DNA of 64,000 nucleotides from a virus: positions 1-64,000 of IMG/VR virus record IMGVR_UViG_3300017963_000239. The stretch is one strand, 5' to 3'. Positions 5,203 through 36,785 of the stretch are shown here, one piece after another. The translations under genes were made by a program, and so were the position numbers. The notes below the pieces were generated by a model, which did not search any database, was not told the DNA's origin, and worked only from the letters and a program-made list of their open reading frames with translations. Every line of letters starts with the position of its first letter. Position 1 is the stretch's first letter.

Positions 5203-5769
5203 ATGGGCCGAAAGAAGAAACCGAACGCAACACGAAGGTCGAAGGAGTACGCGCGCCAACGATGGCAAGCGAGGAAGGAGCTGGCACTGGAGAGACTTGA
5301 AGGGAAGTGCGCTGGTTGTGGGTCGTCGGAGGACTTGCAGTTCGACCACATCGACCCGTCAACGAAGGAGCACAAGATCTCCAGCATCTACACCTACTCG
5401 ATGGAGAGGTTCCTAGCTGAAGTCGACAAGTGCCAACTGCTATGCCGCGAGTGCCACGAGAAGAAGTCGATCAAAGACGCGGGGAAGGAGTCATCCAAAG
5501 GTCTACACGGTTCACGTTCAGCCGCTCGGCACTGCGGGCCTCCGATGTGCGATGCGTGCAGAGAGGCTTCTCGGAAGTACCAGAAGATCAAGTGGATGAG
5601 ACGATTGCAGCGAGAGGGTTTGGTGGAGGTCACGCCGGCCGGTGAGGCTTTCATGGAAGGAGACAGAGACATGTGTGACGGAAGGAAGGGCAGGAAGGGC
5701 TATCCCGCAGCGCACGCGCGCACCCGAACCCATCTACGGGGGTGCTGGCACGCTGGAGAGTCCACCTGA
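5203..5769 (+). CDS. HNH homing-type endonuclease
   Basis: CAGC..LQFDHIDP..KCQLLCRECH; 3' end overlaps tRNA-Tyr. Confidence 0.85.
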   Translation: MGRKKKPNATRRSKEYARQRWQARKELALERLEGKCAGCGSSEDLQFDHIDPSTKEHKISSIYTYSMERFLAEVDKCQLLCRECHEKKSIKDAGKESSKGLHGSRSAARHCGPPMCDACREASRKYQKIKWMRRLQREGLVEVTPAGEAFMEGDRDMCDGRKGRKGYPAAHARTRTHLRGCWHAGEST

Positions 5770-5822
5770 TTGTAAATCAGACGCCTTAGGCTATGGCGGT
5801 TCGAGTCCGTCCACCCCCACCA
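5738..5822 (+). tRNA. tRNA-Tyr(GTA)
   Basis: GGGGGTG/CACCCCC acceptor, loop TTGTAAA, long variable arm, CCA. Confidence 0.88.
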
Positions 5823-6005
5823 TGAAGATCAGCGAGAAAGCGAAGTGGATCGGCGAGTTCTGGAGCAAGCTCGGGTTCAAGACGACGGTGCTGCTCGACA
5901 AGGAAGGCGAACCGATCCTGACACACGCATGGTGGCCAGAACTGATCGTGACGAGGTTGGACATGAGCAAGAAGGGAGAGAAGAAACGCACGGCCCCGTG
6001 AACGC

Positions 6006-6083
6006 GGGTCCGTAGCTCAATCAGGTAGCAGCAGCGGCCTTTTAAGCCGAGGGTTGCGGGTTCGATTCCCGCCGGACCCACCA
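6006..6083 (+). tRNA. tRNA-Lys(TTT)
   Basis: Cloverleaf, loop CTTTTAA, CCA. Confidence 0.92.
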
Positions 6084-6122
6084 GGATGGATGGTTAAGGA
6101 TAGCGTGTTACACTTAACCATC

Positions 6123-6536
6123 ATGCCTACAGTTTCTAAGAAGGACGATTACAACGAGTACATGCGGCAGTACATGGCCGAAAGGTATGAACGCCGTAGG
6201 AAAAGTATCGTGGAGCAACTAGGAGGTGTGTGTGCCAGGTGTGGATCAAAAGATCAGTTAGAGATCGATCACATTGATCCGCCGGGTAAGAAGTTGAACA
6301 TCAGTCGGCGCCTAGCCGGAGTATCGGAAAAGGCGCTCCAGCGAGAGCTGACAAAATGCCAACTGCTTTGTCGGCGATGTCACGAGTTGAAGACCATTTT
6401 GGAACGAGGGCACACACCAGCAAAAGGGACACACGGAACGCTGTCAGCGTATCGGTGGTGCGGCCCTCCGAAGTGCGACGAGTGTAAGAGAGCGAAAAGG
6501 GAATACGTGCGGAGAAGAAGAAGTGAGGATCCGTGA
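6123..6536 (+). CDS. HNH homing-type endonuclease
   Basis: CARC..LEIDHIDP..KCQLLCRRCH, C-terminal HGT..C..CxxC; stop inside tRNA-Lys(CTT) 5' end. Confidence 0.85.
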   Translation: MPTVSKKDDYNEYMRQYMAERYERRRKSIVEQLGGVCARCGSKDQLEIDHIDPPGKKLNISRRLAGVSEKALQRELTKCQLLCRRCHELKTILERGHTPAKGTHGTLSAYRWCGPPKCDECKRAKREYVRRRRSEDP

Positions 6537-6601
6537 TGTAACGGTCAGCATGTCCGGCTCTTACCCGGTTCGTGAAGGTTCGAATCCTTTCGGGTCCACC
6601 A
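6527..6601 (+). tRNA. tRNA-Lys(CTT)
   Basis: GGATCCG/CGGGTCC, loop CTCTTAC, CCA. Confidence 0.85.
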
Positions 6602-6616
6602 AGACAAAGATCGCAT

Positions 6617-6687
6617 TGGGATGTAGTTCAACGGCAGAACGGGTGGCTCTGGACCATCAAATCGGGGTTCGAATCCCTGCATCCCAG
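6617..6687 (+). tRNA. tRNA-Gln(CTG)
   Basis: TGGGATG/CATCCCA, loop CTCTGGA. Confidence 0.9.
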
Positions 6688-6752
6688 CCGGCTTCAAAGG
6701 GAAGCCTTGATCTCTGACAACACGACCTAGCTTGTACATGGTACGGTGAGGT

Positions 6753-7148
6753 ATGCAGCCCTCGCGGGAGCCTGCCTACATCTCCAAGTACAACAGAGCC
6801 CTTTTCGCCAAGCGGAGAGCAATCCTTCGTGCCCATCTAGGTGGGCGGTGCGCTGTCTGCGGAAGCGTTGATGATCTCCAGTTCGACCACATCGACCCGT
6901 CTACCAAACGGTTCAAAGTGGCTTCGGGTTTGGGGAGGTCGATGAAGGCGCTCTTGGAGGAAGCGGCAAAGTGCCAACTGCGCTGCGTCGCGTGTCACCG
7001 CGAGAAGACTTCTCGGGAGCGCGCGGCGAAGGCAAGAGCCAACATGAAACATGGGAAGCTCAGCACGTACTACCGACACAAGTGCCGGTGCGCTGCCTGC
7101 AAGAAAGCCCGATCCGATTACTACTTCGAGGTTCAGAAGGGCTCATAG
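6753..7148 (+). CDS. HNH homing-type endonuclease
   Basis: CAVC..LQFDHIDP..KCQLRCVACH, HGK..CRCAAC. Confidence 0.85.
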   Translation: MQPSREPAYISKYNRALFAKRRAILRAHLGGRCAVCGSVDDLQFDHIDPSTKRFKVASGLGRSMKALLEEAAKCQLRCVACHREKTSRERAAKARANMKHGKLSTYYRHKCRCAACKKARSDYYFEVQKGS

Positions 7149-7329
7149 GTTGGCCGACAGGACTTTGGGTCGAACCCCCACCGGCGGCATCGCTGTCGGA
7201 AAAGCACCTCGCGTCACGCCCCTACAGGCGTGGCTGGGAAACGGGCGCGAGGGCGCAGGTGGTTCCACCCTCTCCTGATGTAGACGTAAGGGGGACGGCG
7301 GCAGTTCGTCTGCCGCCTCCCCCGATTTT

Positions 7330-7405
7330 GGCAGGGTAGCTCAATTGGCTGAGCACATGGCCGTTAACCATGCCGATGCGGGTTCGAGTCCCGCCCCTGT
7401 CGCCA
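7330..7405 (+). tRNA. tRNA-Asn(GTT)
   Basis: Cloverleaf, loop CCGTTAA (C33), CCA. Confidence 0.88.
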
Positions 7406-7572
7406 GCAGCGTCCAACCGATCCGAGCACACACGCTTTCAGACTTCCAATCTGAGAATACGGGTTCGAATCCCGTGCCCTCCTCCATCGCCTTCGGGCGA
7501 GTAGTCAACGGGGGGCTCGTCTAACGGCTAGGACATCACAGCAAACACCTGCTCTGTTCCCTCGGACGCTGC
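7406..7572 (+). ncRNA. circularly permuted tRNA-Gly(TCC)-like RNA with CCAAC/CTCGG closing stem
   Basis: Order: anticodon arm, T arm, GCCCTCC-T-CCA, hairpin, GGGGGGC, D arm; closed by GCAGCGTCC/GGACGCTGC. Confidence 0.8.
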
Positions 7573-7579
7573 AAAGTCT

Positions 7580-7933
7580 TTACGGTCTGCGAGGGATCGT
7601 CATGCCGCTGTGGGTGCGGATGCCCAGCATCTCCTTCAAGATGCCGAGGGCCTTCTCATCATCGAACTGCTTGCACGAGAACACGTCCATCATGAACGTG
7701 CGTCGCAGCGGCCAGCAGTGGATGGAGATGTGCGAGGTGGAGATCATGGCGTAGGCCGAGATGCCGCCTTCGTCCAAGAACCCCTGGCTGTTCAATTTGC
7801 TCTTGTCGACGGGGATGCGCTTGAAGCGCGGACCGTCGATGACCTCCATGTCGAGCGCTCGCGCCAACGAGCTGAACAGCTCTCGTAGGTGGTGCTCGGT
7901 GAACACGATCTCATCGCGCACTGTCCCATCCAC
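7580..7933 (-). CDS. speD: S-adenosylmethionine decarboxylase proenzyme-like
   Basis: GGISAYAMISTSHISIHCWP..DVFSCKQF; GLHLVVD motif extends upstream of called start. Confidence 0.75.
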   Translation of the reverse strand: MDGTVRDEIVFTEHHLRELFSSLARALDMEVIDGPRFKRIPVDKSKLNSQGFLDEGGISAYAMISTSHISIHCWPLRRTFMMDVFSCKQFDDEKALGILKEMLGIRTHSGMTIPRRP

Positions 7934-8061
7934 GACGAGGTGCAGTCCGTCGATGACGTTGGCCGTGGCTCGGGATGGTCCGGCACCAGGATCTCCCAGT
8001 CAAGGTCGTTTTTCTCCCCCCAAAGGTGTCAGACGTTCGGGGGTCCGCACGTCGTGGGAGC

Positions 8062-8484
8062 ATGAAGATCACGAAAGACTCACATGTCGACCACAACCTC
8101 ACCACGGAGCATCTGGAGTTCATCAAGGAGCGCTTCGGACACATCGAAGAGTTCTTCATCGAGACCGTGGAGGTGCCTCTGCATCTTCCTCCGCTTCCTT
8201 GTGGGCTCTTCGGCCCGTTCATGGGCGATGAACCCGTGGAGGAGAGCGAGGTCTCCTACGTGCGCCGGGGCGACCGGCCGGGAGATTCCCGCGTCGTACA
8301 GCGCGCCCAACGGATGGTCCGGAAGATGACCGTCATCGGCGGCCCTCATGAGGGAGCCATCATCATGTTCACGGCCTACGGTGGGCCGTGCGCTCCACGC
8401 GAGCCGTGGGACGAGTCCCTGTCTCCGGAGGAGCGAGAAGAGAGCGTGGCTTTTTGGAAGGATCACGCGCTCGCCGCAGAGTAG
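8062..8484 (+). CDS. hypothetical protein
   Basis: GGAG RBS, typical codon usage. Confidence 0.6.
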   Translation: MKITKDSHVDHNLTTEHLEFIKERFGHIEEFFIETVEVPLHLPPLPCGLFGPFMGDEPVEESEVSYVRRGDRPGDSRVVQRAQRMVRKMTVIGGPHEGAIIMFTAYGGPCAPREPWDESLSPEEREESVAFWKDHALAAE

Positions 8485-8560
8485 GCCACCTTGGCTCAGT
8501 TGGTAGAGCAGCTGTTTCGTAAACAGCAGGTCTCCGGTTCAAGTCCGGAAGGTGGCTCCA
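8485..8560 (+). tRNA. tRNA-Thr(CGT)
   Basis: Cloverleaf, loop TTCGTAA, CCA. Confidence 0.92.
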
Positions 8561-8611
8561 TGTGGTGCGCAAGCACCGGCCTGGGAGTCGCTTTGGCTTC
8601 TCCCTCGTCTT

Positions 8612-9050: not shown

Positions 9051-10949
9051 ATGGACGCGGAGACTTTGGGTCCTGCCGAAAGGATCATCAACACAGTGCT
9101 AACCTACCAGGACCATCTCTGGCACAACCGTCCGGGGTTCGTCGTGACGGACAACTCGGCGGTGGGCGTCAAGTGGCAGCCGGTGACCACGAAGGACGAG
9201 GACGGCAAGAAGGTCGTCTATCAGGTCCACAAGCGTGGTAAGCGGCGCACTCGGACGAAGCTCGGCACGCTCTGGGCCGACAACACCATTCGGGACGAGA
9301 ACCGACGCAAGATCGGCGAGTACCGACCGGCGGGGCTTTTCCCTGAGGTGGCGACCTGGATGTACAAGCAGGTGGCCGACGTCTGGAGGATGGACAACGA
9401 GTTCGCCGCGCGGTGGGCGTCGTACCAGTTTCCTCAGGACCACAAAGACATGAAGGTCGTGCTTGCGGCGTTCATGCTGGTCCAGTCGCGGAAGGGCGAC
9501 CCCGTTCGAGAGGACGGGCAGGTCTTGTTCCACGACGACGACTTCCGGGAGGTCGGGGAGGCCATGTGTCTCATCCACCGCAGGGACAAGAAGGGCATCG
9601 ACCCGAAGATGCTGGCGCGGATTCGGGACGTGTTGGAGGTTCCTGCCATCGCGGAGCTGAACCGCGAGCTGGGGTTCGGGCGCTCCACGCGCACGCCGTT
9701 CTTGGGCCGTTGGCCGAAGGCGGTTCGGGCGTGGCTCCGATTCCGGGAGGAGAACCTGCCGGTGTTGGAGGGCTTGGTGAACAGTGGTCAGCGCAACATC
9801 GCGCGGAAGCTCGCGAAGGCTGTGGGCTACAAGCCTCAGTCCCCGAAGTTCTTCGAGGTGTTGGGCTGGACGCAGAGCCAGGCCAAGGATGGTCGCAGGA
9901 AGATCGCTCTCGGGCAGGACTTCTCGGGTACGGAAACTTGGGAAGGACTGAGCGAGCAGGAGATCTGCGAGCTGATCATGCGCGAGAAGACCAACTACAA
10001 GCGCATCGTCGGTCTGCTCCCGAAGGACGTGGGGCTGACTCGGGCCATCATGGCTGCGGCTGTGGAGGCGGGCTCCTTGTCCGACAAGGATCTGATCATC
10101 CAGGCGCCGACCCTGGAGGACTTGGGCTTGCTGAAGGTCCAGGAAATCAAGGAGCGGTGGGAGGCGGCCATGAGCCGTGCCGAGGACATGCGGGCGGCGA
10201 ACATCGCAGCTCGGATGCGTACCAAGGAGGGGCGCGAGAAGATGGAGGCCGCGGCCGACACTGCCTTGCAGCAGGCGGCTGAGGAAGAGATGAAGAACCT
10301 TCGGATCTACTTCATCGTCGACCGCTCCGGTTCGATGGACGACTGCATCGAGCGCGCCAAGAGCCACTTGAAGCGGTTCCTGCAGGGCTTCCCGCCGGAC
10401 CGCATCCACGTTTCGCACTTCAACACGGTGGGGCGTGAGGTGGAGATCAAGCACGCTTCCGCAGCGGGCGTCGAGCAAGCCTTCCTAGGCATCCAGGCCA
10501 CGGGTGGGACGAACTACGGCGCCGGCATTCGGGTGCTGCAGCACCGGCCCCCGAAGGACGACGAGGATACGCTGATGATCTTCGTCGGCGATGAGAAGGC
10601 GCACTCCTTCACGCACGACGTGCAGGTGTCGGGTCTGCGCCCCATGGCGTTCGGCTTCATCAAGGTGGAGTCGAACTGGGGCATGGCGGGTCGAGCTGTG
10701 CAGGACACGGCGAGGGAGCTGGGTATCCCCTGCTTCATGATCGAGGAGAGCACGTTCGGCGAGCCTGGCGAAGACCTGGACCCCTATGTCATTCCTCGGA
10801 CGATCCGGAATCTCGTCGCGGTTACTCCGGTCGGGCAGTACCACGGCGTGCAGCGCGTTGCGCCGCGGGTCACGCTGGTCGACCGCATCATGAAGACCGA
10901 CCTGCTCCACAAGCCTGTCTGGGCCACGGAGCTGTCGTCGGCAGCGTGA
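9051..10949 (+). CDS. vWA-domain protein, possibly Ro60/TROVE-like
   Basis: C-terminal MIDAS DRSGSM..GGT..VGDE; long basic helical N-terminal region. Confidence 0.7.
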   Translation: MDAETLGPAERIINTVLTYQDHLWHNRPGFVVTDNSAVGVKWQPVTTKDEDGKKVVYQVHKRGKRRTRTKLGTLWADNTIRDENRRKIGEYRPAGLFPEVATWMYKQVADVWRMDNEFAARWASYQFPQDHKDMKVVLAAFMLVQSRKGDPVREDGQVLFHDDDFREVGEAMCLIHRRDKKGIDPKMLARIRDVLEVPAIAELNRELGFGRSTRTPFLGRWPKAVRAWLRFREENLPVLEGLVNSGQRNIARKLAKAVGYKPQSPKFFEVLGWTQSQAKDGRRKIALGQDFSGTETWEGLSEQEICELIMREKTNYKRIVGLLPKDVGLTRAIMAAAVEAGSLSDKDLIIQAPTLEDLGLLKVQEIKERWEAAMSRAEDMRAANIAARMRTKEGREKMEAAADTALQQAAEEEMKNLRIYFIVDRSGSMDDCIERAKSHLKRFLQGFPPDRIHVSHFNTVGREVEIKHASAAGVEQAFLGIQATGGTNYGAGIRVLQHRPPKDDEDTLMIFVGDEKAHSFTHDVQVSGLRPMAFGFIKVESNWGMAGRAVQDTARELGIPCFMIEESTFGEPGEDLDPYVIPRTIRNLVAVTPVGQYHGVQRVAPRVTLVDRIMKTDLLHKPVWATELSSAA

Positions 10950-10957
10950 GGTGAACC

Positions 10958-11878
10958 ATGGGTTGGAGAGATCTGCTTCAGGCCGATGACGAGACCGTCG
11001 TCTCGGCGTGGGTCGGGGGCAGGACTCTCCGTACCCGAAACCGCACGTGGACCATCGAGGGGCGCCTCCCACCGGAGCACGGCTGGCACTCTTTCAGCAT
11101 CACGGGCCGAAAGGCCCGCTGGAAGGAGCCGACCAACGCTCCGATGGAGGTGCTTTTCGATCTGCAGCGCGGCTACCTCGTCGGGGACCGCCTCGTGGCG
11201 GACAACGTAGAGGTCGAGCTGGACCCCGCGAAGCTCGCGCAGCGCTTCGAGCGCGTGCACTTGGTGGAGGAAGGCTTGGACCGCTTCGCCCGCATCGCTG
11301 CGGGGCGCGTCTGTGACGATGGACCGCTCATCTACGAGGGGCCGGACATGCCGCTCGGCCCGGAGGACGACGTACTTCAGGCATTCCTGGACCGGAAAGG
11401 CACCGTAGACGCCGTTTCGGGGGTTCCCCCTGCTCTGGACGCGGCCTTCCGGTTCGAGTCCTGGCAGCGCTCTGAGGCCGAAAGACGGCGCCGTGAGGAG
11501 CGGGAGCGTCGGGAGCGAGAAGAGCGCCGCAGGCGCATCATGGAGCAGGTCGGCAGCGCAGCCGGTCGGAGGGCCATGGCGCGCGAGGACTTTGGCGAGG
11601 CTGCTCGGGCAGCGCTCGCGATGGGCAACGCCGAGTACTTGGATCATCGGCGAGCTGTAGGACGGAACGAGATGATCGTGCGGTTCCGTATAAACAGGCG
11701 GCGCTTCGAGTGCACCTGCGACGCGGAGACTCTGCGCATCATCGACTCGGGCATCTGCCTGACGAGTCATGACACCGGAAAGCAGTACGACAACTACTTC
11801 ACGTTGGAGTCGTTGCCTGGGGTCATTGAGGACGCGGAGCGTCAGGGCGTGCTCGTGGTGTTCCGCCACGTCGACTAG
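10958..11878 (+). CDS. putative divergent E2-like (Ubl-conjugating) protein
   Basis: C-terminal IIDSGICL resembles E2 G-x-ICL active site; operon context with JAB/Ubl/E1. Confidence 0.45.
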   Translation: MGWRDLLQADDETVVSAWVGGRTLRTRNRTWTIEGRLPPEHGWHSFSITGRKARWKEPTNAPMEVLFDLQRGYLVGDRLVADNVEVELDPAKLAQRFERVHLVEEGLDRFARIAAGRVCDDGPLIYEGPDMPLGPEDDVLQAFLDRKGTVDAVSGVPPALDAAFRFESWQRSEAERRRREERERREREERRRRIMEQVGSAAGRRAMAREDFGEAARAALAMGNAEYLDHRRAVGRNEMIVRFRINRRRFECTCDAETLRIIDSGICLTSHDTGKQYDNYFTLESLPGVIEDAERQGVLVVFRHVD

Positions 11879-11890
11879 GAGCTGAGAGAG

Positions 11891-12514
11891 ATGCACACGA
11901 CGAAGTTCGAGCTGGCGGACGGCCGTGGGGTCACTGTCGCCCACAACGGAGACTGGTCTGGGGACGCAGAGGTTACGTGGACGGAGAAGAACGGCAAGCG
12001 GGCGTGCACGATGGTGCCGGCCGACGTGCTTCTCCAGGTTGGGAACCAGGCGGCGTTCGAGGCCCTGAAGGGGAAGCTCATCAGCTTCATCGAAGATCTG
12101 GAGTGGGAGGAAGAGCCCGAACCGGTCAGGAAGGGGAACGACATGGAAGCTGGAGTGGTTCTCGGGCCGGGCGGCGAGCCGATCTATTGGCACGTTCCTT
12201 CCGACCGCCAAGTGGCGCACATTCCTGACAGCCAAGTGCTGTGGGATGTGTTCTTCAAGTACAAGGAGACGATGACGGGCTTCGCGCACAGTCATCCGGG
12301 CAGTGGGTCCCCGCTTCCGTCCCACATGGACTTGACCACCTTTGCTGCCAACGAAGTAGGACTCGGGAAGCGGTACGATTGGTGGATCGTCACCGGGAGC
12401 GCCGTAGGGCTCGTCCGGTGGAGGGGGCCGAAGAGGCTCGACTACGAAGTGTGGGCTCTGCTGTCTGAGGAGCCGGCATGGGTGAACGAGCTTCGAAGGG
12501 TTTCAACAGGCTGA
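11891..12514 (+). CDS. JAB/JAMM metalloprotease
   Basis: E...HSHP..PSHMD JAMM motif; JAB domain starts near ATG 12143. Confidence 0.8.
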   Translation: MHTTKFELADGRGVTVAHNGDWSGDAEVTWTEKNGKRACTMVPADVLLQVGNQAAFEALKGKLISFIEDLEWEEEPEPVRKGNDMEAGVVLGPGGEPIYWHVPSDRQVAHIPDSQVLWDVFFKYKETMTGFAHSHPGSGSPLPSHMDLTTFAANEVGLGKRYDWWIVTGSAVGLVRWRGPKRLDYEVWALLSEEPAWVNELRRVSTG

Positions 12515-12531
12515 CAGGAGTGGAGGTTGAG

Positions 12532-12858
12532 ATGGTACAGCGAATGCCAGGTGAAGATGGTGACGGAGCGGTCGAGCAGATCATGGACGCCGTGAACGTC
12601 GCACCACAGGACAACGAGGCCGTGTTGGAGATCACCTACGGTGGTCAGCAGGGCACTTTGACCGACCCGGTTCCGTGGGACGCTGCGGACGGCGACTTGA
12701 AGCAGTGGGCGACGGAGGCGTTGCAGGCTGGGGGCATCCCTGGTTTGGACGCCACGCCGGACGCGGACTTCACGGACTTCGTCGTCCACAAGTTCTCCGC
12801 GAAGGACGGCCTGCCCAACAGGGTCGTACTGAGACCCAAAACGGAATACGGGTATTGA
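12532..12858 (+). CDS. ubiquitin-like (beta-grasp) protein
   Basis: Small protein ending LRPKTEYG-Y, between JAB and E1; GGAGG RBS. Confidence 0.6.
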   Translation: MVQRMPGEDGDGAVEQIMDAVNVAPQDNEAVLEITYGGQQGTLTDPVPWDAADGDLKQWATEALQAGGIPGLDATPDADFTDFVVHKFSAKDGLPNRVVLRPKTEYGY

Positions 12859-12891
12859 CCGAATACAGTGTTTGGTTCTACAATACCAAAC

Positions 12892-13818
12892 ATGGTTGAG
12901 GTTGATGTTCGGGCTTTGGCGGAGGGTTATCAGGACGGAGCGAGCGCGAAGAAGCTGGCACGCCAGCACGGTGTGTCGGTTTGGACCGTGCTCGCCCGTC
13001 TGAGGTCCGCTGGAGTGGAGATACGCCCGAGACAGCCCGAGAAGCGTTTGGATCTTCCGAAGCCCGACCACTCGCTTTTGGTCGAGATTGTTGACGGCCT
13101 TCTTCTCGGTGATGGCAGTATTGATCGAAAGGGGGCTCTTCGATTGGAGCAAGCCCGCGACACTACGGGGTGGTTGTACGAGGTGCAGGGGCTCTTGAGA
13201 GCTGTTCGGTGTTCGTCTAGGATCGTTCCTATTCCTCCGAGGGAAAGGCGCATAGAGGATCGTGTGGTGAGATCTTCGGGAGGCGCATTGCTTTACACCC
13301 CGTGCTACGTCGAGTTGAAGAAACAGCGCGCACGGTGGTATCCGAAGGGGGAGAAGCGCGTTCCAAAGGGCATCAAGATGTCTCCGATGGTGCTAGCTCA
13401 GTGGTTGGCCGGGGACGGTACATACGACCATTCGGGGCGCCTACGTTTCTGCACTGATGGATTCAGGCGCGAGGATGTGGACCTTCTCATTCGTGCCCTG
13501 GGGGTGGTTGGGCTACAGGCAACCAGGGCGGCGAGGCCGCGACCGGGCCAGTACCACGTCAACGTGGATCGCCTGGACGAAGCTGTGAAGGTTAAGGCCA
13601 TGATCGAGGACTTGGTTCCTGCGTGCTTCCGATACAAGCTCTCCTACGTGCGACCACCTATTCGGAAGCCTGGGAGGAAGCTGACCGACGAGCAGGTCTT
13701 GGAGATTAGAGAGCGGGCAGAGCAGGGTGAGTCCAAGGCTGCGCTGGCAGAACGCTTCGGTGTGTCCGACACGGCTGCCGGAAACATCGTTAAAAGACGA
13801 ACGTACAAGGATCTGTGA
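12892..13818 (+). CDS. LAGLIDADG homing endonuclease with HTH extensions
   Basis: GLLLGDGSI and QWLAGDG motifs; atypical codon usage. Confidence 0.85.
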   Translation: MVEVDVRALAEGYQDGASAKKLARQHGVSVWTVLARLRSAGVEIRPRQPEKRLDLPKPDHSLLVEIVDGLLLGDGSIDRKGALRLEQARDTTGWLYEVQGLLRAVRCSSRIVPIPPRERRIEDRVVRSSGGALLYTPCYVELKKQRARWYPKGEKRVPKGIKMSPMVLAQWLAGDGTYDHSGRLRFCTDGFRREDVDLLIRALGVVGLQATRAARPRPGQYHVNVDRLDEAVKVKAMIEDLVPACFRYKLSYVRPPIRKPGRKLTDEQVLEIRERAEQGESKAALAERFGVSDTAAGNIVKRRTYKDL

Positions 13819-13826
13819 GGATACCG

Positions 13827-14402
13827 ATGGCACGAGTAGTAGTAGTTGGAGTTGGTGCTTTGGGTTCCCACGTGGTGCAGTACCTGCGCAACGTGGCCGA
13901 TGAGATCGTGGTGATTGATCACGATAGGGTCGAGCGCAAGAACGTGCTGTCGCAGTTCCACGGCAAGGGCACGGTAGGCAAGTCGAAGGTCCAGGCGATC
14001 CAACAGTCGATGAACTTCATGTTCGGTGTGAAGGTCCACACGGTCCCTCACAAGCTCGTGGAGGACAACGCCGAGCAGTTGCTCGGGGGTGCAGACCTCG
14101 TGTTGGACTGCTTGGACAACGGAGAGTCCCGAGCTGTCGTGCAGCGCTACGTCCGTGAGGCCGGTACGCCGTGCTTGCACGGAGCGCTCGACGCGAACGG
14201 CACTTTCGGACAGGTCATGTGGGACGACGAGTTCCACATCGACTACGAGACGACGCGCGGAGGAGCTACCTGCGAGAACGGAGAGCACTTGCCCTTCATC
14301 TCGATGGTGTCCGCTTTCCTGGCGCGCGCCGCACAAGCGTTCCTGACGCAAGGCAAGCAGATTGGGTTCCTCGTCTATCTGGACGGGGCCAAGCGAGTCT
14401 GA
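13827..14402 (+). CDS. E1/ThiF-family adenylyltransferase
   Basis: VVVGVGALGS, IDHDRVERKN..Q, GKSKV, DLVLDCLDN, ATCE. Confidence 0.88.
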   Translation: MARVVVVGVGALGSHVVQYLRNVADEIVVIDHDRVERKNVLSQFHGKGTVGKSKVQAIQQSMNFMFGVKVHTVPHKLVEDNAEQLLGGADLVLDCLDNGESRAVVQRYVREAGTPCLHGALDANGTFGQVMWDDEFHIDYETTRGGATCENGEHLPFISMVSAFLARAAQAFLTQGKQIGFLVYLDGAKRV

Positions 14403-14513: not shown

Positions 14514-14625
14514 GGGGTCTTGAGAAGTTCGGTTCTCATTATCTGGGATTGCCCCTCGGCCTCGTCACACAGGCCAACCAGTACTTCCCCACACGCTTGG
14601 GGGTTCGATTCCCCCAGACCCCGCC
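14514..14625 (+). ncRNA. tRNA-like RNA whose anticodon arm is replaced by a CTCGG/CCAAC hairpin
   Basis: GGGGTCT/AGACCCC acceptor, D-like hairpin, T arm GGGGGTTCGATTCCCCC, central CCTCGGCCT-CGTCACAC-AGGCCAAC. Confidence 0.7.
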
Positions 14626-14630
14626 GATTA

Positions 14631-14773
14631 GTGACCAACGGATCAGATCGTACATGCAACGTATGCGGGTTCGAGTCCCGTCACTTCCGCCAAACTGGAA
14701 ATGAAGCCCGACTGGTAGGGCACTAGCCTCGAAAGCTAGCACAACGCTAACCCCGGTCTCCTCACTCGGTCAC
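14631..14773 (+). ncRNA. circularly permuted tRNA-Ser(CGA)-like RNA with CCAAC/CTCGG stem
   Basis: T arm, CACTTCC-G-CCA, GGAAATG, D arm, anticodon arm loop CTCGAAA; closed by GTGACC/GGTCAC. Confidence 0.78.
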
Positions 14774-14784
14774 AAGTCGAATCT

Positions 14785-14933
14785 GCCCCTTTGGGAGAGT
14801 GATACTCCGCTTGCTACCCTCCAGCTCTTGCCACTCCCCTCATTGGAGGGACCGGGCAAGTGCTCACAAGCCGCCCAAGTATTGGGCACCATCTCCGCAA
14901 GAGATCCGTGGTTTGATTCCACGAAGGGGCTCC
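14785..14933 (+). ncRNA. tRNA-like RNA with greatly extended anticodon arm
   Basis: GCCCCTT/AAGGGGC acceptor, T-like arm CGTGGTTTGATTCCACG; shares TGCTCACAAGC with 15077 element. Confidence 0.5.
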
Positions 14934-14939
14934 GGTCAA

Positions 14940-15062
14940 GTCGACCAACTTGAAAGTGCTAACACGCAATTCGCCCAGTGGTAGGGCGTCAACCTGCTAA
15001 GTTGAAAGTCACTGGTTCAAATCCAGTATTGCATTCCAATTCAGCACCTCACCTCGGACGAC
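14940..15062 (+). ncRNA. tRNA(GCT)-like cloverleaf embedded in CCAAC/CTCGG stem
   Basis: D, anticodon (CTGCTAA) and T arms within GTCGACCAAC...CTCGGACGAC. Confidence 0.72.
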
Positions 15063-15076
15063 ACGACCAACCTTTC

Positions 15077-15192
15077 GGGCCGCTGGAATTTTGGTTCCAA
15101 ACCTTTACCCAGCATAGCTCCTCGGCCCCGTCACACGGGCCAACACGCGTTGCTCACAAGCACTCCGAGTTCGACTCTCGGGCGGTCCACCA
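15077..15192 (+). ncRNA. tRNA-like RNA whose anticodon arm is replaced by a CTCGG/CCAAC hairpin
   Basis: GGGCCGC/GCGGTCC-A-CCA, T arm, central CCTCGGCCC-CGTCACAC-GGGCCAAC. Confidence 0.72.
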
Positions 15193-15207
15193 GATACAAT
15201 AACCTTT

Positions 15208-15720
15208 GTGAACGAGGAGACTAGAACCTGCAAGGACTGTGGTAAGTCCAAACCGATCAAGTCGTTCAAGCCTACTGGGAGGGGCGGCTATCGACGGCGC
15301 GTTTGCTATCCTTGCTACCGAGCTAGGGAGGATAAGAGAAACCCAGCCTACAAGCTGGAGCGCCAGCGTCGCTACAGGGCGAACAACCCCGTAACCAGCA
15401 TCTTGTGGGACTGTAGGCAGTCGGATAGGAAACGAGGGTTCAGCGGGAACGACTTGGACAAGGAGTTCATCGCAGAGAAGATTTCAGAGGGTTGCCTGTA
15501 CTGCGGAGAGCGAAGCATCAGGATGACCCTAGATAGGATCGACAACGAGAAGCCGCACGACAAAAGCAACGTCGCCCCCTGTTGCATTCGCTGCAACTAT
15601 TTGAAGGGGTCGATGCCTTACGAGGCTTGGTTGCACATCGTTCCTGCGGTTCGAGAAGCGAGTGAGTTAGGGCTGTTCGGATCTTGGCGTTCGGAGCCCA
15701 TCTCGAAAAAGGGACCGTAG
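15208..15720 (+). CDS. HNH-type endonuclease
   Basis: CKDC..CYPC, CLYC..LDRIDN..H..NVAPCCIRCN. Confidence 0.8.
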   Translation: MNEETRTCKDCGKSKPIKSFKPTGRGGYRRRVCYPCYRAREDKRNPAYKLERQRRYRANNPVTSILWDCRQSDRKRGFSGNDLDKEFIAEKISEGCLYCGERSIRMTLDRIDNEKPHDKSNVAPCCIRCNYLKGSMPYEAWLHIVPAVREASELGLFGSWRSEPISKKGP

Positions 15721-15737
15721 TCATCTACGGGGCACGG

Positions 15738-15764
15738 GCGGTTCGAGGCCGCAGCGGTCCACCA
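15738..15764 (+). pseudogene. orphan T arm and acceptor 3' end matching the 15077 RNA
   Basis: GCGGTTCGAGGCCGC-A-GCGGTCCACCA; same terminal 11 nt as 15182-15192. Confidence 0.7.
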
Positions 15765-15765
15765 A

Positions 15766-15933
15766 GGCATCCAACAGATCAAGTCATACATGCATCCTCG
15801 AAAGAGGGCTCCAGGTTCGAGTCCTGGCTCCGCGACCAGCCCGCAAGGGCTACAAACCGCGGAGTGGCGGAATGGTAGACGCACTTGTGTTTGGAACAAG
15901 CAAAACGCTTTCTGGCCTGTTCACTCGGATGCC
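15766..15933 (+). ncRNA. circularly permuted class-II tRNA-like RNA with CCAAC/CTCGG stem
   Basis: Variable arm, T arm, CTCCGCG-A-CCA, hairpin, CGCGGAG, Leu-type D arm, anticodon arm loop GTTTGGA; closed by GGCATCC/GGATGCC. Confidence 0.78.
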
Positions 15934-15994
15934 CTATCTCTGGTTCCCCTGATTGGCAGGGCTCGCTGGGTTCGACTCCCAGGTGCCGGACCAA

Positions 15995-16224
15995 GACAGC
16001 CAACTGGTGAGATCACACACGCACTGGTTTAGCGCTTGACTGAATATCAAGAGTACGTTGGTTCGAGACCAACCCCTCCCGCTCTGCTTCGGACTGCACG
16101 AAGGTTCCGCTGATCCCCGGTAAGACGGCCATGACGCCGGGGCTAGGTAACCATGGCCAGCAGTCCGGAGTGGAGCGGGAGGGTAGCTGAGAAATCGCAA
16201 CTCTGGTCCCTCCCCTCGGCTGTC
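15995..16224 (+). ncRNA. circularly permuted tRNA-Phe(GAA)-like RNA opened in the D loop
   Basis: 3' D strand, loop CTGAATA, T arm, CCCTCCC, long linker, GGGAGGG-TAGCT; closed by GACAGCC/GGCTGTC. Confidence 0.72.
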
Positions 16225-16285
16225 CTGATTTTTCGTACACGGTGGAGTCTTAGGACTCCTGCTCTATCCGTGATACAGTGTCTGT

Positions 16286-20140: not shown

Positions 20141-20269
20141 GCGCCCATCGGATCAGATCAAACAAGCATCCTACGTAGCTCAGATGGTAGAGCAGCGGCC
20201 TCTCAAGCCGCCGGCCATGGGTTCAATTCCCATCGCGGGTAACACAACATGATCTTTTCACTCGGGCGC
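20141..20269 (+). ncRNA. tRNA(CTC)-like cloverleaf embedded in CCATC/CTCGG stem
   Basis: GCGCCCATC..AGATCA [cloverleaf, loop CTCTCAA] TGATCT..CACTCGGGCGC. Confidence 0.72.
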
Positions 20270-20277
20270 CCATTTTT

Positions 20278-25615: not shown

Positions 25616-25690
25616 GCGGGTGTAGTTCAGGGGTAGAACGTCAGCTTCCCAAGCTGAATGTCGTCGGTTCAAATCCGATCATCCGCTCCA
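25616..25690 (+). tRNA. tRNA-Gly(CCC)
   Basis: Cloverleaf, loop TTCCCAA, CCA. Confidence 0.92.
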
Positions 25691-25694
25691 ACTT

Positions 25695-25766
25695 GCGGGC
25701 ATAGCCAAGTGGTAAGGCCGTGGGTTTCCAACCCACCATTCGCCGGTTCGAATCCGGCTGTCCGCT
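25695..25766 (+). tRNA. tRNA-Gly(TCC)
   Basis: Cloverleaf, loop TTTCCAA. Confidence 0.9.
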
Positions 25767-25844
25767 CCGCCGGGGAAATGGAGTACCCGGATGGTCTGTT
25801 TGATCAAACCGACTAACCAAGCCGGCTCGGGAGGGCCGGCATCT

Positions 25845-36386: not shown

Positions 36387-36732
36387 GGGCTCGATCGGTT
36401 TCGACGTGGAGGAAAGGAAAGATTCGCGTGTAGGCAGCGCTCGACCTGCCTTGATCAATCGAGCAATTTGCAGTTGCCAACGACAACAGCACCCCTCTGG
36501 CCGCGAAGGCGGCCTGAGCGCTGGGCGGGTAGGAGTCCGAGTACCCCGCAGGCGCCAATACCACACGGACTGTGCTCGGGGAGGTTGGCACCGCCGATGC
36601 CCGAGCGAGACTTTCGGTGCTGGACAGGCTGGAGAGACGGCCAAGCCCTGCTGTGAGGGTAGATCAGCTACGCACGTGAACGAGGATCTTGACGGAACTC
36701 GGCGGACCAGGGTTCGATTCCCTGCGGGTCCA
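36387..36732 (+). ncRNA. ssrA: tmRNA
   Basis: 5' GGGCTCGATCGGTTTCGAC, 3' GACCAGGGTTCGATTCCCTGCGGGTCCA with G3:U; tag ANDNSTPLAAKAA* at 36476-36517. Confidence 0.9.
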
Positions 36733-36785
36733 CGAAGTCTCCATTGAGCATTGCAGGGAGCGTCCATAAGAGGTACATTGGTCGA

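What the first reader, a model, noticed from the sequence alone, without database searches (positions are those of the whole stretch)
7406..7572. Circularly permuted tRNA-Gly(TCC) opened at the D/anticodon junction
Seen: the 3' half (anticodon arm 7438-7454, T arm, GCCCTCC-U73-CCA to 7486) precedes the 5' half (GGGGGGC 7510-7516, D arm), linked by a UUCG hairpin. Gly discriminator U73 and CCA are kept. Known: permuted tRNA genes are described in some algae and an archaeon, where they mature through a splicing endonuclease. A normal tRNA-Gly(TCC) exists at 25695, so this copy is not needed for decoding.
Basis: partly seen in the sequence, partly recalled or inferred. Interest (0 to 1): 0.82.

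Follow-up and report, generated by a model that had tools for sequence, protein, structure and literature searches.

The report
Permuted tRNA-mimic Y-like RNA in phage
The "permuted tRNA-Gly" is real as a structure, but it is one copy of a conserved, unannotated family of tRNA-mimicking small RNAs that huge phages encode next to a very divergent Ro60-like protein, so it is most likely a Y-RNA-type scaffold and not a decoding tRNA.

Summary
Window 7406-7572 folds as a 9-bp closing helix around an anticodon-like hairpin (loop CUUCCAA), a T arm, a 7-bp acceptor stem (GCCCUCC-U-CCA ... GGGGGGC, G3:U70) closed by a UUCG hairpin, and a D arm. When the halves are re-joined, ARAGORN calls tRNA-Gly(tcc).

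The element is not a one-off. A covariance model built from 31 other sequences, without the target, matches it end to end (68.9 bits, E 3e-16). The family has more than 50 copies in huge-phage contigs. All seven helices show covariation (90.5% paired, against 35-45% in slid controls). The window holds two more strong copies (14624-14778, 15760-15937) and weaker ones in other topologies.

Copies lie near, and on the same strand as, a 632-aa protein (9051-10949). Its helical domain matches only Ro60 structures (Z 13.8, 11.1, 9.1; next 6.3), and it carries a C-terminal vWA domain.

Best reading: a Y-RNA/YrlA-like tRNA mimic, probably cut by RNase P and trimmed to its encoded CCA, as shown for Mycobacterium smegmatis YrlA. 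Maturation into a contiguous decoding tRNA by a splicing-type route is not supported. Rfam's YrlA model does not detect it, so I class it as a new variant of a known kind. Earlier notes of this scan on the same window reached a similar reading.

The parts
7406..7414 (+). Lower closing helix, 5' strand (GCAGCGUCC). It pairs with 7564-7572 and begins directly after the CCA of tRNA-Asn (7330-7405).
   Evidence: MFE fold; helix 1 of the family model, where all 11 pairs show changes on both sides
7415..7418 (+). Internal loop, 5' side (AACC); family consensus CA(A/C)C
   Evidence: Alignments A2/A3; cmsearch alignment
7419..7428 (+). Upper scaffold helix, 5' strand (GAUCCGAGCA). It pairs with 7550-7559.
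   Evidence: helices 2-3 covary
7429..7435 (+). Conserved single-stranded motif CACACGC (family consensus YACA(A/C)GCA)
   Evidence: Invariant A-C-A-.-G columns in A2/A3
7436..7456 (+). Anticodon-arm-like hairpin: 5-bp core 7438-7442/7450-7454, extendable to 7 bp; loop CUUCCAA; UCC at 7445-7447. Relative to the family model it is a 19-nt insertion before the T arm.
   Evidence: Stretch 7438-7475 is 94.9% identical to an annotated tRNA of Escherichia phage 4MG and resembles tRNA genes on other metagenomic contigs.
7459..7475 (+). T arm (ACGGG UUCGAAU CCCGU)
   Evidence: helix 4 is 99.6% paired
7476..7486 (+). Acceptor 3' strand GCCCUCC, then discriminator U and encoded CCA
   Evidence: NCCA follows this strand in 19 of 51 distinct family rows
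7487..7509 (+). Linker that closes the acceptor stem: UUCG-capped hairpin 7487-7500 plus GUAGUCAAC. Predicted to be excised.
   Evidence: the linker varies in length and sequence across the family
7510..7516 (+). Acceptor 5' strand GGGGGGC (7 bp with 7476-7482, including G3:U70). The predicted RNase P site is 5' of 7510.
   Evidence: helix 5 covaries at 7 of 7 pairs. RNase P cleavage is an inference from M. smegmatis YrlA (PMC4201824).
7517..7535 (+). U8-C9, D arm (GUCU AACGGCUA GGAC) and A26
   Evidence: helix 6 is 100% paired
7536..7549 (+). Single-stranded joiner UCACAGCAAACACC (family: CAA..GCAA.ACC). The post-D hairpin present in most relatives is absent here.
   Evidence: cmsearch alignment: 17 model positions deleted
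7550..7572 (+). Upper helix 3' strand (7550-7559), conserved loop CCUC (7560-7563), lower helix 3' strand GGACGCUGC (7564-7572)
   Evidence: CUCG is nearly invariant
9051..10949 (+). Candidate protein partner: 632-aa divergent Ro60-like protein (N-terminal beta region, TROVE-like helical domain, C-terminal vWA)
   Evidence: Pfam finds VWA_2 only. AF2 model. Foldseek top 10 are all Ro60. The helical domain alone against 48,161 chains: Ro60 at Z 13.8, 11.1 and 9.1, next best 6.3.
14624..14778 (+). Paralogue, majority layout (scaffold - T - closed acceptor with GCCA - D - hairpin)
   Evidence: 105.7 bits; fold
15760..15937 (+). Paralogue with an extra small hairpin before the T arm, ACCA plus a GCAA hairpin in the acceptor loop, and a hairpin after the D arm
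   Evidence: 95.9 bits; fold
15989..16228 (+). Weak paralogue with the same helix order as the target (hairpin - T - long closed acceptor - D)
   Evidence: 32.5 bits; fold

Best explanation
Window 7406-7572 encodes a roughly 167-nt non-coding RNA built from two modules.

Module 1 is a bulged closing helix formed by the 5' and 3' ends: lower helix, a CC-AAC / CUC-GG internal loop, an upper helix, and an ACA(A/C)GC motif. It is conserved in sequence and by covariation across a large family of huge-phage RNAs. I infer that it is the protein-binding handle, most likely for the Ro60-like vWA protein encoded 1.5 kb downstream on the same strand.

Module 2 is a complete tRNA-like cloverleaf whose gene order is permuted. 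The hairpin and T arm come first, the acceptor stem is closed by a hairpin linker, and the D arm comes last.

Inferred steps. The RNA is transcribed with the tRNA array and is freed at its 5' end when tRNA-Asn is matured. By analogy with M. smegmatis YrlA, RNase P then cuts 5' of G7510 and the linker is trimmed back to the encoded CCA (7486). That would leave two pieces of about 81 and 63 nt held together by the scaffold helix and the acceptor stem, displaying a tRNA-like body on a Ro60-like RNP. Like other Y RNAs, it would act as a tether or decoy for tRNA-recognising factors during infection, not as a decoder of GGA codons.

Shown here: the structure, family membership, covariation, linkage to the Ro60-like gene, and the Ro60-like fold. 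Inferred: protein binding, processing, and role.
For: Structure: the MFE fold gives every proposed helix (z = -3.0).

Family: model R1 was built from 31 relatives without the target. It matches the target over its full length at 68.9 bits, E 3e-16.
- It gives 61 matches at E < 1e-8 in 70 sources.
- 90.5% of cells are paired against 35-45% when partners are slid. The covariation score is 0.72 against 0.09-0.14, and 37 of 39 pairs show double changes.

Linkage: all matches are on the strand of the P0001 homologue, mostly 2-6 kb away.
- In five 393-529 kb phage genomes, 13 of 14 strong matches lie within about 10 kb of that gene.
- The family is also found in GenBank Virus Rctr197k, in an unannotated gap.

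Partner: Foldseek's top 10 hits for P0001 are all Ro60. The helical domain alone gives Ro60 at Z 13.8 (265 aligned), 11.1 and 9.1, with the next chain at 6.3. A vWA domain follows, as in Ro60.

Precedent: YrlA RNAs have a Ro-binding stem plus V, T, acceptor and D stem-loops, and lie within 4 kb of Ro60 on the same strand, including in phages. M. smegmatis YrlA, with a 7-bp acceptor, is cut by RNase P into 82- and 65-nt halves and carries CCA (PMC4201824). Thermus phage phiLo Ro60 binds phage Y-like RNAs (PMC12135203).

CCA: NCCA directly follows the acceptor 3' strand in 19 of 51 distinct rows, where chance would give about 1 in 64.

Natural variants: in two other metagenomes, the three differences inside the element (7423, 7502, 7548) all fall at unpaired positions.
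Against: - No expression or processing data exist for this RNA.
- The Rfam YrlA model scores only 13.3 bits on the target and 22.8 bits on a paralogue, against a gathering score of 69.
- The published Ro-binding motif GNCGAAN0-1G is not the conserved motif here.
- P0001 has no TROVE Pfam match, has an extra N-terminal beta region, and its whole-chain TM-scores to Ro60 are low (0.2-0.34).
- The RNAs and the P0001 gene both sit inside tRNA islands, so their proximity could reflect the island and not a partnership. The operon also encodes JAB-like and ThiF/E1 proteins, which could be the real partners.
- The target differs from most relatives. Its hairpin has a fully canonical anticodon loop (U33, A37) and lies before the T arm, and its acceptor has G3:U70. 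It may therefore have a more tRNA-like role than the family average.
Confidence: 0.6

Rival explanations
1. A true circularly permuted tRNA-Gly(UCC) gene. The precursor is cut at the 26/27 junction flanks and in the acceptor linker, and the D arm is ligated to the anticodon arm, possibly through a circular intermediate. The product is a contiguous decoding tRNA, as in Cyanidioschyzon merolae and Thermofilum pendens.
For: The re-joined halves are called tRNA-Gly(tcc) by ARAGORN. The anticodon loop is canonical (C32, U33, A37), the variable region has normal length, and U73-CCA is present. Stretch 7438-7475 looks like genuine tRNA sequence.
Against: The flanks form a conserved 9+10-bp bulged helix with 9- and 14-nt single-stranded joiners, not a bulge-helix-bulge. 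Homologues share that helix but differ in helix order. Some have tetraloop-closed acceptors with no CCA, and U33 is not conserved in their hairpins. No RtcB or RNA ligase was found in the 82-kb fragment, which is only about 54% of the genome. Acceptor pairs G2:C71 and G3:U70 differ from the bacterial tRNA-Gly identity set (established knowledge). A normal tRNA-Gly(tcc) is present. No paper in the library reports permuted tRNA genes in bacteriophages.
Confidence: 0.04
2. A two-piece, aminoacylatable tRNA-like RNA, analogous to two-piece tmRNA. After RNase P cleavage and 3' trimming, the CCA end is charged, with alanine through G3:U70 or with glycine through U73. The charged RNA then acts in translation or as an aminoacyl donor.
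For: The acceptor stem has 7 bp with an encoded NCCA, and this is enriched across the family. G3:U70 is present in the target and in the paralogue at 15077. The top of the acceptor, the D arm and the T arm are closest to the phage's own tRNA-Ala(TGC). Topology resembles permuted tmRNA (weak RF04321 match, 14.7 bits). M. smegmatis YrlA acquires CCA in vivo (PMC4201824).
Against: G3:U70 is not a family feature; most CCA-bearing copies have G3:C70 or other pairs. Many members have closed acceptors that cannot be charged. No tag reading frame or pseudoknots are present, and ARAGORN and Rfam do not call a tmRNA here. The discriminator is U, not the A73 of tRNA-Ala and tmRNA. The Chen et al. paper did not regard aminoacylation as a general YrlA property.
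Confidence: 0.1
3. A decoy or sponge that works without the Ro60-like protein. The tRNA-like body would soak up host tRNA-targeting nucleases or tRNA-modifying enzymes. Alternatively, the scaffold helix is a processing or stability signal recognised by another operon product (JAB, Ubl or E1).
For: The phage carries a near-complete tRNA set and at least 3 to 8 mimic copies with different 'anticodon' loops. The same scaffold also flanks normal-order tRNA-like sequences at 14940 and 20141. In both this window and Virus Rctr197k, the RNA cluster directly follows the operon that ends in ThiF/E1.
Against: There is no direct evidence. The only neighbour with an RNA-binding fold precedent is the Ro60-like protein. 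This reading overlaps with the best explanation and does not exclude it.
Confidence: 0.15
4. Non-functional debris from recombination between tandem tRNA genes: the 3' half of one copy, a spacer, and the 5' half of the next.
For: Junctions between adjacent tRNAs give partial matches to the family model, up to about 48 bits (window 25621-25778 scores 43.7 bits). This shows how such a layout could arise. HNH endonuclease genes lie among the tRNAs.
Against: The acceptor strands pair perfectly. The flanks carry the conserved scaffold and motifs. The full-length match to an independent model is 68.9 bits, well above tRNA junctions. The family shows strong covariation. SNPs in relatives avoid the helices.
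Confidence: 0.03

Closest known systems
YrlA-type bacterial and phage Y RNAs with Ro60/Rsr (Rfam RF02553; Chen et al. 2014, PMC4201824)
   Same: The 5' and 3' ends pair into a protein-binding stem. The interior is a tRNA mimic with a T arm, a loop-closed acceptor stem and a D arm, and optionally a small hairpin just before the T arm. The gene lies near, and on the strand of, a Ro60-type protein, including in phages. A 7-bp acceptor allows RNase P cleavage and a CCA end, as in M. smegmatis.
   Different: The sequence is not recognised by RF02553 (13-23 bits against 69). The conserved stem motif is CC-AAC / CUC-GG plus ACA(A/C)GC, not GNCGAAN0-1G. Most members carry a full anticodon-like arm, so the scaffold leaves the cloverleaf at the variable-region or 26/27 hub instead of replacing the anticodon stem. 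CCA is often encoded. The protein partner is so divergent that Pfam TROVE does not detect it, and it has an extra N-terminal region. Several topologies coexist in one genome.
Circularly permuted tRNA genes of Cyanidioschyzon merolae, some green algae and Thermofilum pendens
   Same: The 3' part of the cloverleaf (anticodon arm, T arm, acceptor 3' strand) is encoded upstream of the 5' part (acceptor 5' strand, D arm), joined by a linker. A leader-trailer helix is present.
   Different: Those precursors carry a bulge-helix-bulge motif cut by the splicing endonuclease, are ligated through a circular intermediate, and give essential decoding tRNAs. Here there is no such motif, no known bacterial or phage machinery for that route was found, the helix is a conserved functional module, and a normal isoacceptor exists.
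Two-piece (permuted) tmRNA (Rfam RF04321)
   Same: T arm, then acceptor 3' strand with CCA, then an excised loop, then acceptor 5' strand in gene order. The target has G3:U70. The mature RNA would be two base-paired pieces.
   Different: There is no tag reading frame, no pseudoknots, a U discriminator, and full D and anticodon-like arms. The match is 14.7 bits against a gathering score of 47. The phage has a standard one-piece tmRNA at 36387-36733.
Thermus phage phiLo Ro60 with Yrl1/Yrl2 (PMC12135203; PDB 9KOP, 9L5Y)
   Same: A phage-encoded Ro60-fold protein with phage-encoded Y-like RNAs nearby. It is among the best structural matches to P0001.
   Different: The phiLo protein is a recognisable TROVE protein, and its Yrl RNAs were identified by a CGAA motif. 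The present protein and RNA families share neither feature at sequence level.

Membership tests
Circularly permuted tRNA gene (splicing-endonuclease type) | 3' half of the cloverleaf encoded upstream of the 5' half, with complementary acceptor strands | tested here: met
Circularly permuted tRNA gene (splicing-endonuclease type) | Bulge-helix-bulge motif formed by leader and trailer at the junction to be ligated | tested here: not met
   The flanks form a 9-bp helix, a 4x4 internal loop and a roughly 10-bp helix, with 9- and 14-nt single-stranded joiners next to positions 27 and 26
Circularly permuted tRNA gene (splicing-endonuclease type) | Maturation to a contiguous tRNA through a circular or ligated intermediate | not testable with these tools
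   No RNA data could be laid on the element. No RtcB or RNA ligase in the 82-kb fragment, which is about 54% complete.
Circularly permuted tRNA gene (splicing-endonuclease type) | Homologues keep decoding features (invariant U33, isotype identity elements) | tested here: not met
   The hairpin loops of relatives vary in sequence and length and lack a conserved U33. In the target, G2:C71 and G3:U70 depart from bacterial tRNA-Gly identity (established knowledge).
YrlA / bacterial Y RNA | tRNA-like domain with a T arm, a loop-closed acceptor-like stem and a D arm inside a stem formed by the RNA's ends | tested here: met
   a local RF02553 alignment covers T, acceptor and D
YrlA / bacterial Y RNA | Encoded within a few kb of a Ro60 orthologue on the same strand | tested here: inconclusive
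   The target lies 1.5 kb upstream of P0001 on the same strand, and family copies cluster near P0001 homologues. P0001 is Ro60-like by fold only, has no TROVE Pfam match, and the tRNA island is a confounder.
YrlA / bacterial Y RNA | Conserved Ro-binding motif GNCGAAN0-1G in the 5' strand | tested here: not met
   The family consensus is ...CC-CA(A/C)C-... with only sporadic CGA(A/U)
YrlA / bacterial Y RNA | Score at or above the Rfam RF02553 gathering threshold (69 bits) | tested here: not met
   13.3 bits on the target, 22.8 bits on 14664-14721, and no YrlA match at gathering in the window or in 10 loci
YrlA / bacterial Y RNA | Physical binding to Ro60 | not testable with these tools
   Needs a gel-shift or co-immunoprecipitation experiment
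Two-piece (permuted) tmRNA | Tag reading frame with resume codon and pseudoknots; alanine identity (G3:U70, A73) | tested here: not met
   ARAGORN finds only the one-piece tmRNA at 36387-36733. RF04321 scores 14.7 bits against 47. G3:U70 is present but the discriminator is U.
Ro60 / TROVE protein (for P0001) | Helical-repeat ring domain followed by a vWA domain | tested here: met
   Helical domain against 48,161 chains: 1yvp_A Z 13.8 (265 aligned, rmsd 4.4), 2nvo_A Z 11.1, 9l5y_B Z 9.1, next 6.3. vWA domain Z 12-13.7. Pfam VWA_2.
Ro60 / TROVE protein (for P0001) | Match to Pfam TROVE (PF05731) | tested here: not met
   No six-frame match in the 82-kb record at E <= 1; hmmscan finds only vWA families

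The most novel reading that the evidence does not exclude
Huge phages, apparently of Myxococcota-like hosts, carry a modular kit of tRNA-shaped RNAs in which one protein-binding helix is grafted at different points of a cloverleaf. The graft point can be the variable region, the 26/27 junction, the acceptor ends, or the place of the anticodon arm. The members with a 7-bp acceptor and encoded CCA, including this G3:U70 / UCC copy, would be opened by RNase P into two-piece RNAs that are actually aminoacylated. They would then be delivered by, or hidden in, a Ro60-like RNP, for example to recode, to donate amino acids, or to trap host tRNA-directed defences.
Probability: 0.1. Interest if true: 0.9.

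Novelty: new variant of a known kind. Interest (0 to 1): 0.6.

Why it matters
Ro60-Y RNA particles are conserved from bacteria to humans, yet what the tRNA-like half of bacterial Y RNAs does is still unknown.

This family adds a large natural comparison set that Rfam does not capture and that is unannotated in the one GenBank record where I found it. More than 50 copies were found here, and more than 1,500 homologues of the partner protein are in public data. The set includes a full cloverleaf, a frequently encoded CCA end, and several natural permutations of one architecture.

That set shows which parts of the tRNA shape are kept and which are free to vary. It also gives concrete constructs for testing RNase P processing, charging and Ro60-like binding. 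Finally, it shows that Ro60-type proteins in phages are much more widespread than TROVE-based searches indicate.

Tried and rejected
The contigs of the closest P0001 relatives (84% and 75% identity) could not be fetched, so no orthologous copy of the target was compared.
- An exact-pattern scan of viral contigs with 26 nt of the T arm and acceptor gave no match.
- The metagenome scan with P0001 returned only relatives at 47-60% identity.
- Distant blastn of 6900-8500 against GenBank phages returned only a 38-nt tRNA-like match.
- No RNA holder was listed among public runs. Only DNA contigs could be laid.
- Pfam TROVE found nothing in the six-frame search of the record. PHROGs had nothing for P0001. 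A sequence search of PDB chains gave nothing relevant.
- The second-look structural alignment of the whole P0001 model was filled by vWA domains and said nothing about the helical part. That is why the domain was folded alone.
- RtcB, CCA-adding enzyme and RNA ligase families had no match in the 82-kb fragment, which is only about half a genome.
- The promoter and terminator scan of 6700-8600 found nothing useful.
- I considered a kink-turn reading of the scaffold's internal loop and dropped it. The strand opposite the bulge reads CUC, not GA, next to the GG.
- I considered descent from the phage's own tRNA-Gly(tcc) and rejected it. The best matches are to tRNA-Ala(TGC) in the acceptor top, D arm and T arm.
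- MAFFT mis-aligned the target's 3' half in A2. The model was therefore built without the target, and the alignment fitted by the model was used instead.
Full report
**Context**

The window is the first 64 kb of an 81.9-kb IMG/VR virus record estimated to be about 54% complete. It is about 60% G+C and carries 49 tRNA genes and a tmRNA, almost all on the + strand. The finding lies directly after tRNA-Asn (7330-7405). Downstream lies a minus-strand S-adenosylmethionine-decarboxylase-like gene (7580-7933).

Reading the sequence confirms every element at the stated coordinates.
- A hairpin at 7438-7454 with the canonical anticodon loop CUUCCAA.
- A T arm with loop UUCGAAU.
- GCCCUCC-U-CCA ending at 7486.
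- A UUCG-capped hairpin.
- GGGGGGC at 7510-7516, which pairs with GCCCUCC (7 bp, including G3:U70).
- A D arm, GUCU-AACGGCUA-GGAC.

An unconstrained fold of 7400-7580 returns all of these helices at -63.2 kcal/mol (z = -3.0). Joining the 5' half to the 3' half in a script gives an ARAGORN tRNA-Gly(tcc) call for many junction choices. Rfam gives only local, sub-threshold matches: tRNA 24 bits (positions 9-63), permuted tmRNA 14.7 bits, and YrlA 13.3 bits. The YrlA alignment has exactly the order T arm, closed acceptor, D arm.

**It belongs to a family**

The 632-aa ORF at 9051-10949 (P0001) has more than 1,500 homologues. I used them to fetch 69 viral loci, most from 100-600 kb phage contigs.

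A first nhmmer pass with the element found relatives that run through the linker into the 5' half. Their folds show a common layout:
- a long closing helix;
- an internal loop with CA(A/C)C on the 5' side and (A)CUC on the 3' side;
- an upper helix;
- a YACA(A/C)GCA motif;
- a T arm;
- a 7-8-bp acceptor-like stem closed by a variable loop;
- a D arm;
- in most copies, a 5-bp hairpin with a 7-nt loop after the D arm.

An 8-seed HMM found dozens more, often two or three per locus, and two more in the window.

I then built covariance model R1 from 31 members, excluding the target. R1 matches the target over all 150 model positions at 68.9 bits, E about 3e-16. Relative to the model, the target shows two changes:
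- The post-D hairpin is deleted.
Copies 15760-15937 and L027:4991-5156 carry a small hairpin in the same place.

Over the window and 69 loci, R1 finds 61 matches at E < 1e-8. On that alignment:
- 90.5% of cells are standard pairs, against 35-45% when partners are slid by 1-3 columns.
- The covariation score is 0.72, against 0.09-0.14.
- 37 of 39 pairs show changes on both sides.
- All seven helices are supported.

Two caveats apply. The alignment was fitted to the model, which favours the structure. However, RNAalifold on the plain MAFFT alignment already showed double changes at 20 of 24 pairs. Junctions between adjacent ordinary tRNAs give false matches up to about 48 bits (for example 25621-25778, 43.7 bits). 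The target is well above that level. These junction matches also suggest how such RNAs arose: from tandem tRNA copies.

**What the target shares with the family, and where it differs**

The shared parts are the scaffold (GCGUCC-AACC ... CUC-GGACGC), the ACACGC motif, the T arm, the closed 7-bp acceptor followed by NCCA, and the D arm.

NCCA directly follows the acceptor 3' strand in 19 of 51 distinct rows, far above the 1-in-64 chance expectation. Other copies are closed by tetraloops.

The target's helix order (hairpin before the T arm, none after the D arm) recurs in the weak copy at 15989-16228 and in L028:5050-5193. In cloverleaf terms, most copies are opened in the variable region and the target is opened between positions 26 and 27. 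Those two points meet at the same hub of the L-shape, because position 26 contacts position 44 and the anticodon stem is 27-43 (established tRNA structure).

The target's hairpin-to-T-arm stretch looks like genuine tRNA sequence. It is 94.9% identical over 38 nt to a tRNA of Escherichia phage 4MG. Other metagenomic contigs match it, with a D arm before and an acceptor-CCA after the matching part.

The top of the target's acceptor (GGGG/CUCC with G3:U70), its D arm and its T arm are closest to the phage's own tRNA-Ala(TGC), not to its tRNA-Gly(tcc). In the relatives, the corresponding hairpin loops vary and U33 is not conserved. As a family, these RNAs are therefore not under decoding constraint.

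**Other topologies in the same window**

- At 14514 and 15077, the RNA ends are at a 7-bp acceptor and the scaffold helix is capped by a loop where the anticodon arm would be. The 15077 copy has G3:U70, A73 and CCA. This is the circular permutation of the majority layout.
- At 14940 and 20141, the scaffold flanks normal-order tRNA-like sequences, which ARAGORN calls tRNA-Ser(gct) and tRNA-Glu(ctc).

R1 gives these only 25-33 bits, so I treat them as partly checked. They fit the two-module picture: one protein-binding helix combined with a tRNA-shaped body.

**The neighbouring protein is Ro60-like**

Pfam sees only a C-terminal vWA domain in P0001. TROVE is not detected. The protein atlas listed TROVE clusters among weaker neighbours, which I treated only as a lead.
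- An AlphaFold model from 26 homologues (pLDDT 79.5) gave Ro60 proteins as Foldseek's ten best PDB matches over 510-576 columns (E 6e-9 to 8e-6). TM-scores were low, at 0.2-0.34.
- I then folded the helical part alone (residues 95-415, pLDDT 83.6) and aligned it to 48,161 representative chains.
- The top three were Xenopus Ro60 (Z 13.8, 265 residues, rmsd 4.4), Deinococcus Rsr (Z 11.1) and Thermus phage phiLo Ro60 (Z 9.1). The next chain scored 6.3.

So P0001 is a divergent Ro60-type protein with an added N-terminal beta region. Downstream lie an unknown 306-aa ORF, a sub-threshold JAB-like ORF, a LAGLIDADG endonuclease and a ThiF/E1 protein. The RNA cluster at 14514-16228 follows.

**Linkage between the RNA and the protein**

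- All family matches are on the strand of the P0001 homologue, mostly 2-6 kb from it.
- Ten of 21 MAG contigs carrying a homologue also hold the RNA within the fetched flanks. Most of these contigs are binned as Myxococcota and are possibly phage contigs.
- In GenBank Virus Rctr197k, a copy (82 bits) lies in an unannotated gap after the operon that ends with a ThiF-like gene.
- In five 393-529 kb phage genomes searched whole, 13 of 14 strong matches lie within about 10 kb of the gene.

Both the gene and the RNAs sit in tRNA islands, so proximity alone does not prove partnership.

**Comparison with what is known**

Chen et al. (PMC4201824) described YrlA RNAs with these features:
- a Ro-binding stem with the GNCGAAN0-1G motif;
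- V, T, acceptor-like and D stem-loops;
- location within 4 kb of Ro60 on the same strand;
- presence in 22 phages.

They also showed that M. smegmatis YrlA, which has a 7-bp acceptor, is cut by RNase P into 82- and 65-nt halves, with CCA on the 5' half. The target would give 81- and 63-nt pieces by the same route. Phage Ro60 binding phage Y-like RNAs and host PNPase has been shown for Thermus phage phiLo (PMC12135203). Jumbo phages with ROT/TROVE proteins and a tRNA-like partner have been noted (PMC7824862).

The present family differs in several ways:
- Rfam's YrlA model does not reach threshold (13.3 and 22.8 bits against 69).
- The conserved stem motif is different.
- Most members have a full anticodon-like arm.
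- CCA is often encoded.
- The partner protein escapes TROVE models.

A literature search for permuted tRNA genes in phages found none.

**Verdict**

The structure is real and conserved. It is a permuted tRNA-like gene, and it is best read as a Y-RNA/YrlA-like tRNA mimic of a new family. The splicing-type permuted tRNA-Gly reading is not supported.

Binding to the Ro60-like protein, RNase P processing and any charging are inferences. The target's canonical anticodon loop and G3:U70 keep a small chance of a more tRNA-like role. No expression data exist: no RNA run was listed. The only population data are three SNPs in two related metagenomes, all at unpaired positions, which is weak support.

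Noticed in passing
window 14514-14626 and 15077-15193: Two tRNA-like RNAs whose ends are at a 7-bp acceptor stem. The family's scaffold helix (CUC-GG...loop...CC-AAC) is capped by a loop in the place of the anticodon arm. This is the circular permutation of the majority layout. The 15077 copy has G3:U70, A73 and CCA.
   Followed up: partly
window 14940-15066 and 20141-20274: The same scaffold helix and ACA.GCA motif flank normal-order tRNA-like sequences, called tRNA-Ser(gct) (14964-15038) and tRNA-Glu(ctc) (20169-20241). The 'tRNA-Ser' is only 75 nt and has no long variable arm. It is the only GCU-anticodon tRNA in the window.
   Followed up: partly
window 15942-15987: A short tRNA-like element between two family copies. 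It gives a weak match to the mascRNA/menRNA model (19.8 bits against 42.5).
   Followed up: no
window 10958-14402: The operon after the Ro60-like gene holds an unknown 306-aa ORF, a JAB-like ORF (11891-12514, below cut-off), a 126-aa ORF, a LAGLIDADG homing endonuclease (12868-13818) and a ThiF/E1-like protein (13815-14402). The RNA cluster begins about 110 nt later. Virus Rctr197k has a similar order.
   Followed up: partly
window 27999-28530, minus strand: A cluster of tRNA-like genes on the strand opposite all other tRNAs, with odd calls: Tyr(ata), Ile(aat), and one with an undetermined anticodon.
   Followed up: no
window 5203-7148: HNH endonuclease-like ORFs are interspersed among the tRNA genes (6753-7148 matches phrog_4234 at 4e-29; weaker ones at 5203-5769 and 6054-6536).
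   Followed up: no
window 7291-7329: A strong G+C-rich hairpin (GGGGGACGGCGGCAG-UUCG-UCUGCCGCCUCCCCC) followed by GAUUUU, just upstream of tRNA-Asn. It may be a terminator or processing site. The simple scan did not flag it.
   Followed up: no
L091:19495-19675 (KX853510.1, about 175491-175671, minus strand): GenBank Virus Rctr197k has an unannotated member of the RNA family (82.3 bits). Its Ro60-like gene is annotated only as a misc_feature 'similar to conserved hypothetical protein'.
   Followed up: yes
L028:11913-12005 and L038:1075-1156: Huge-phage contigs related through P0001 carry a bacterial small SRP RNA (57.7 bits) and a tRNA-Sec-like gene (49.3 bits) inside their tRNA islands.
   Followed up: no
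L070-L090: Most genome-collection contigs that carry the P0001 family are binned as Myxococcota (Polyangia, Kofleriaceae, Sandaracinaceae). This hints at the host range, or at phage contigs mis-binned into MAGs.
   Followed up: no
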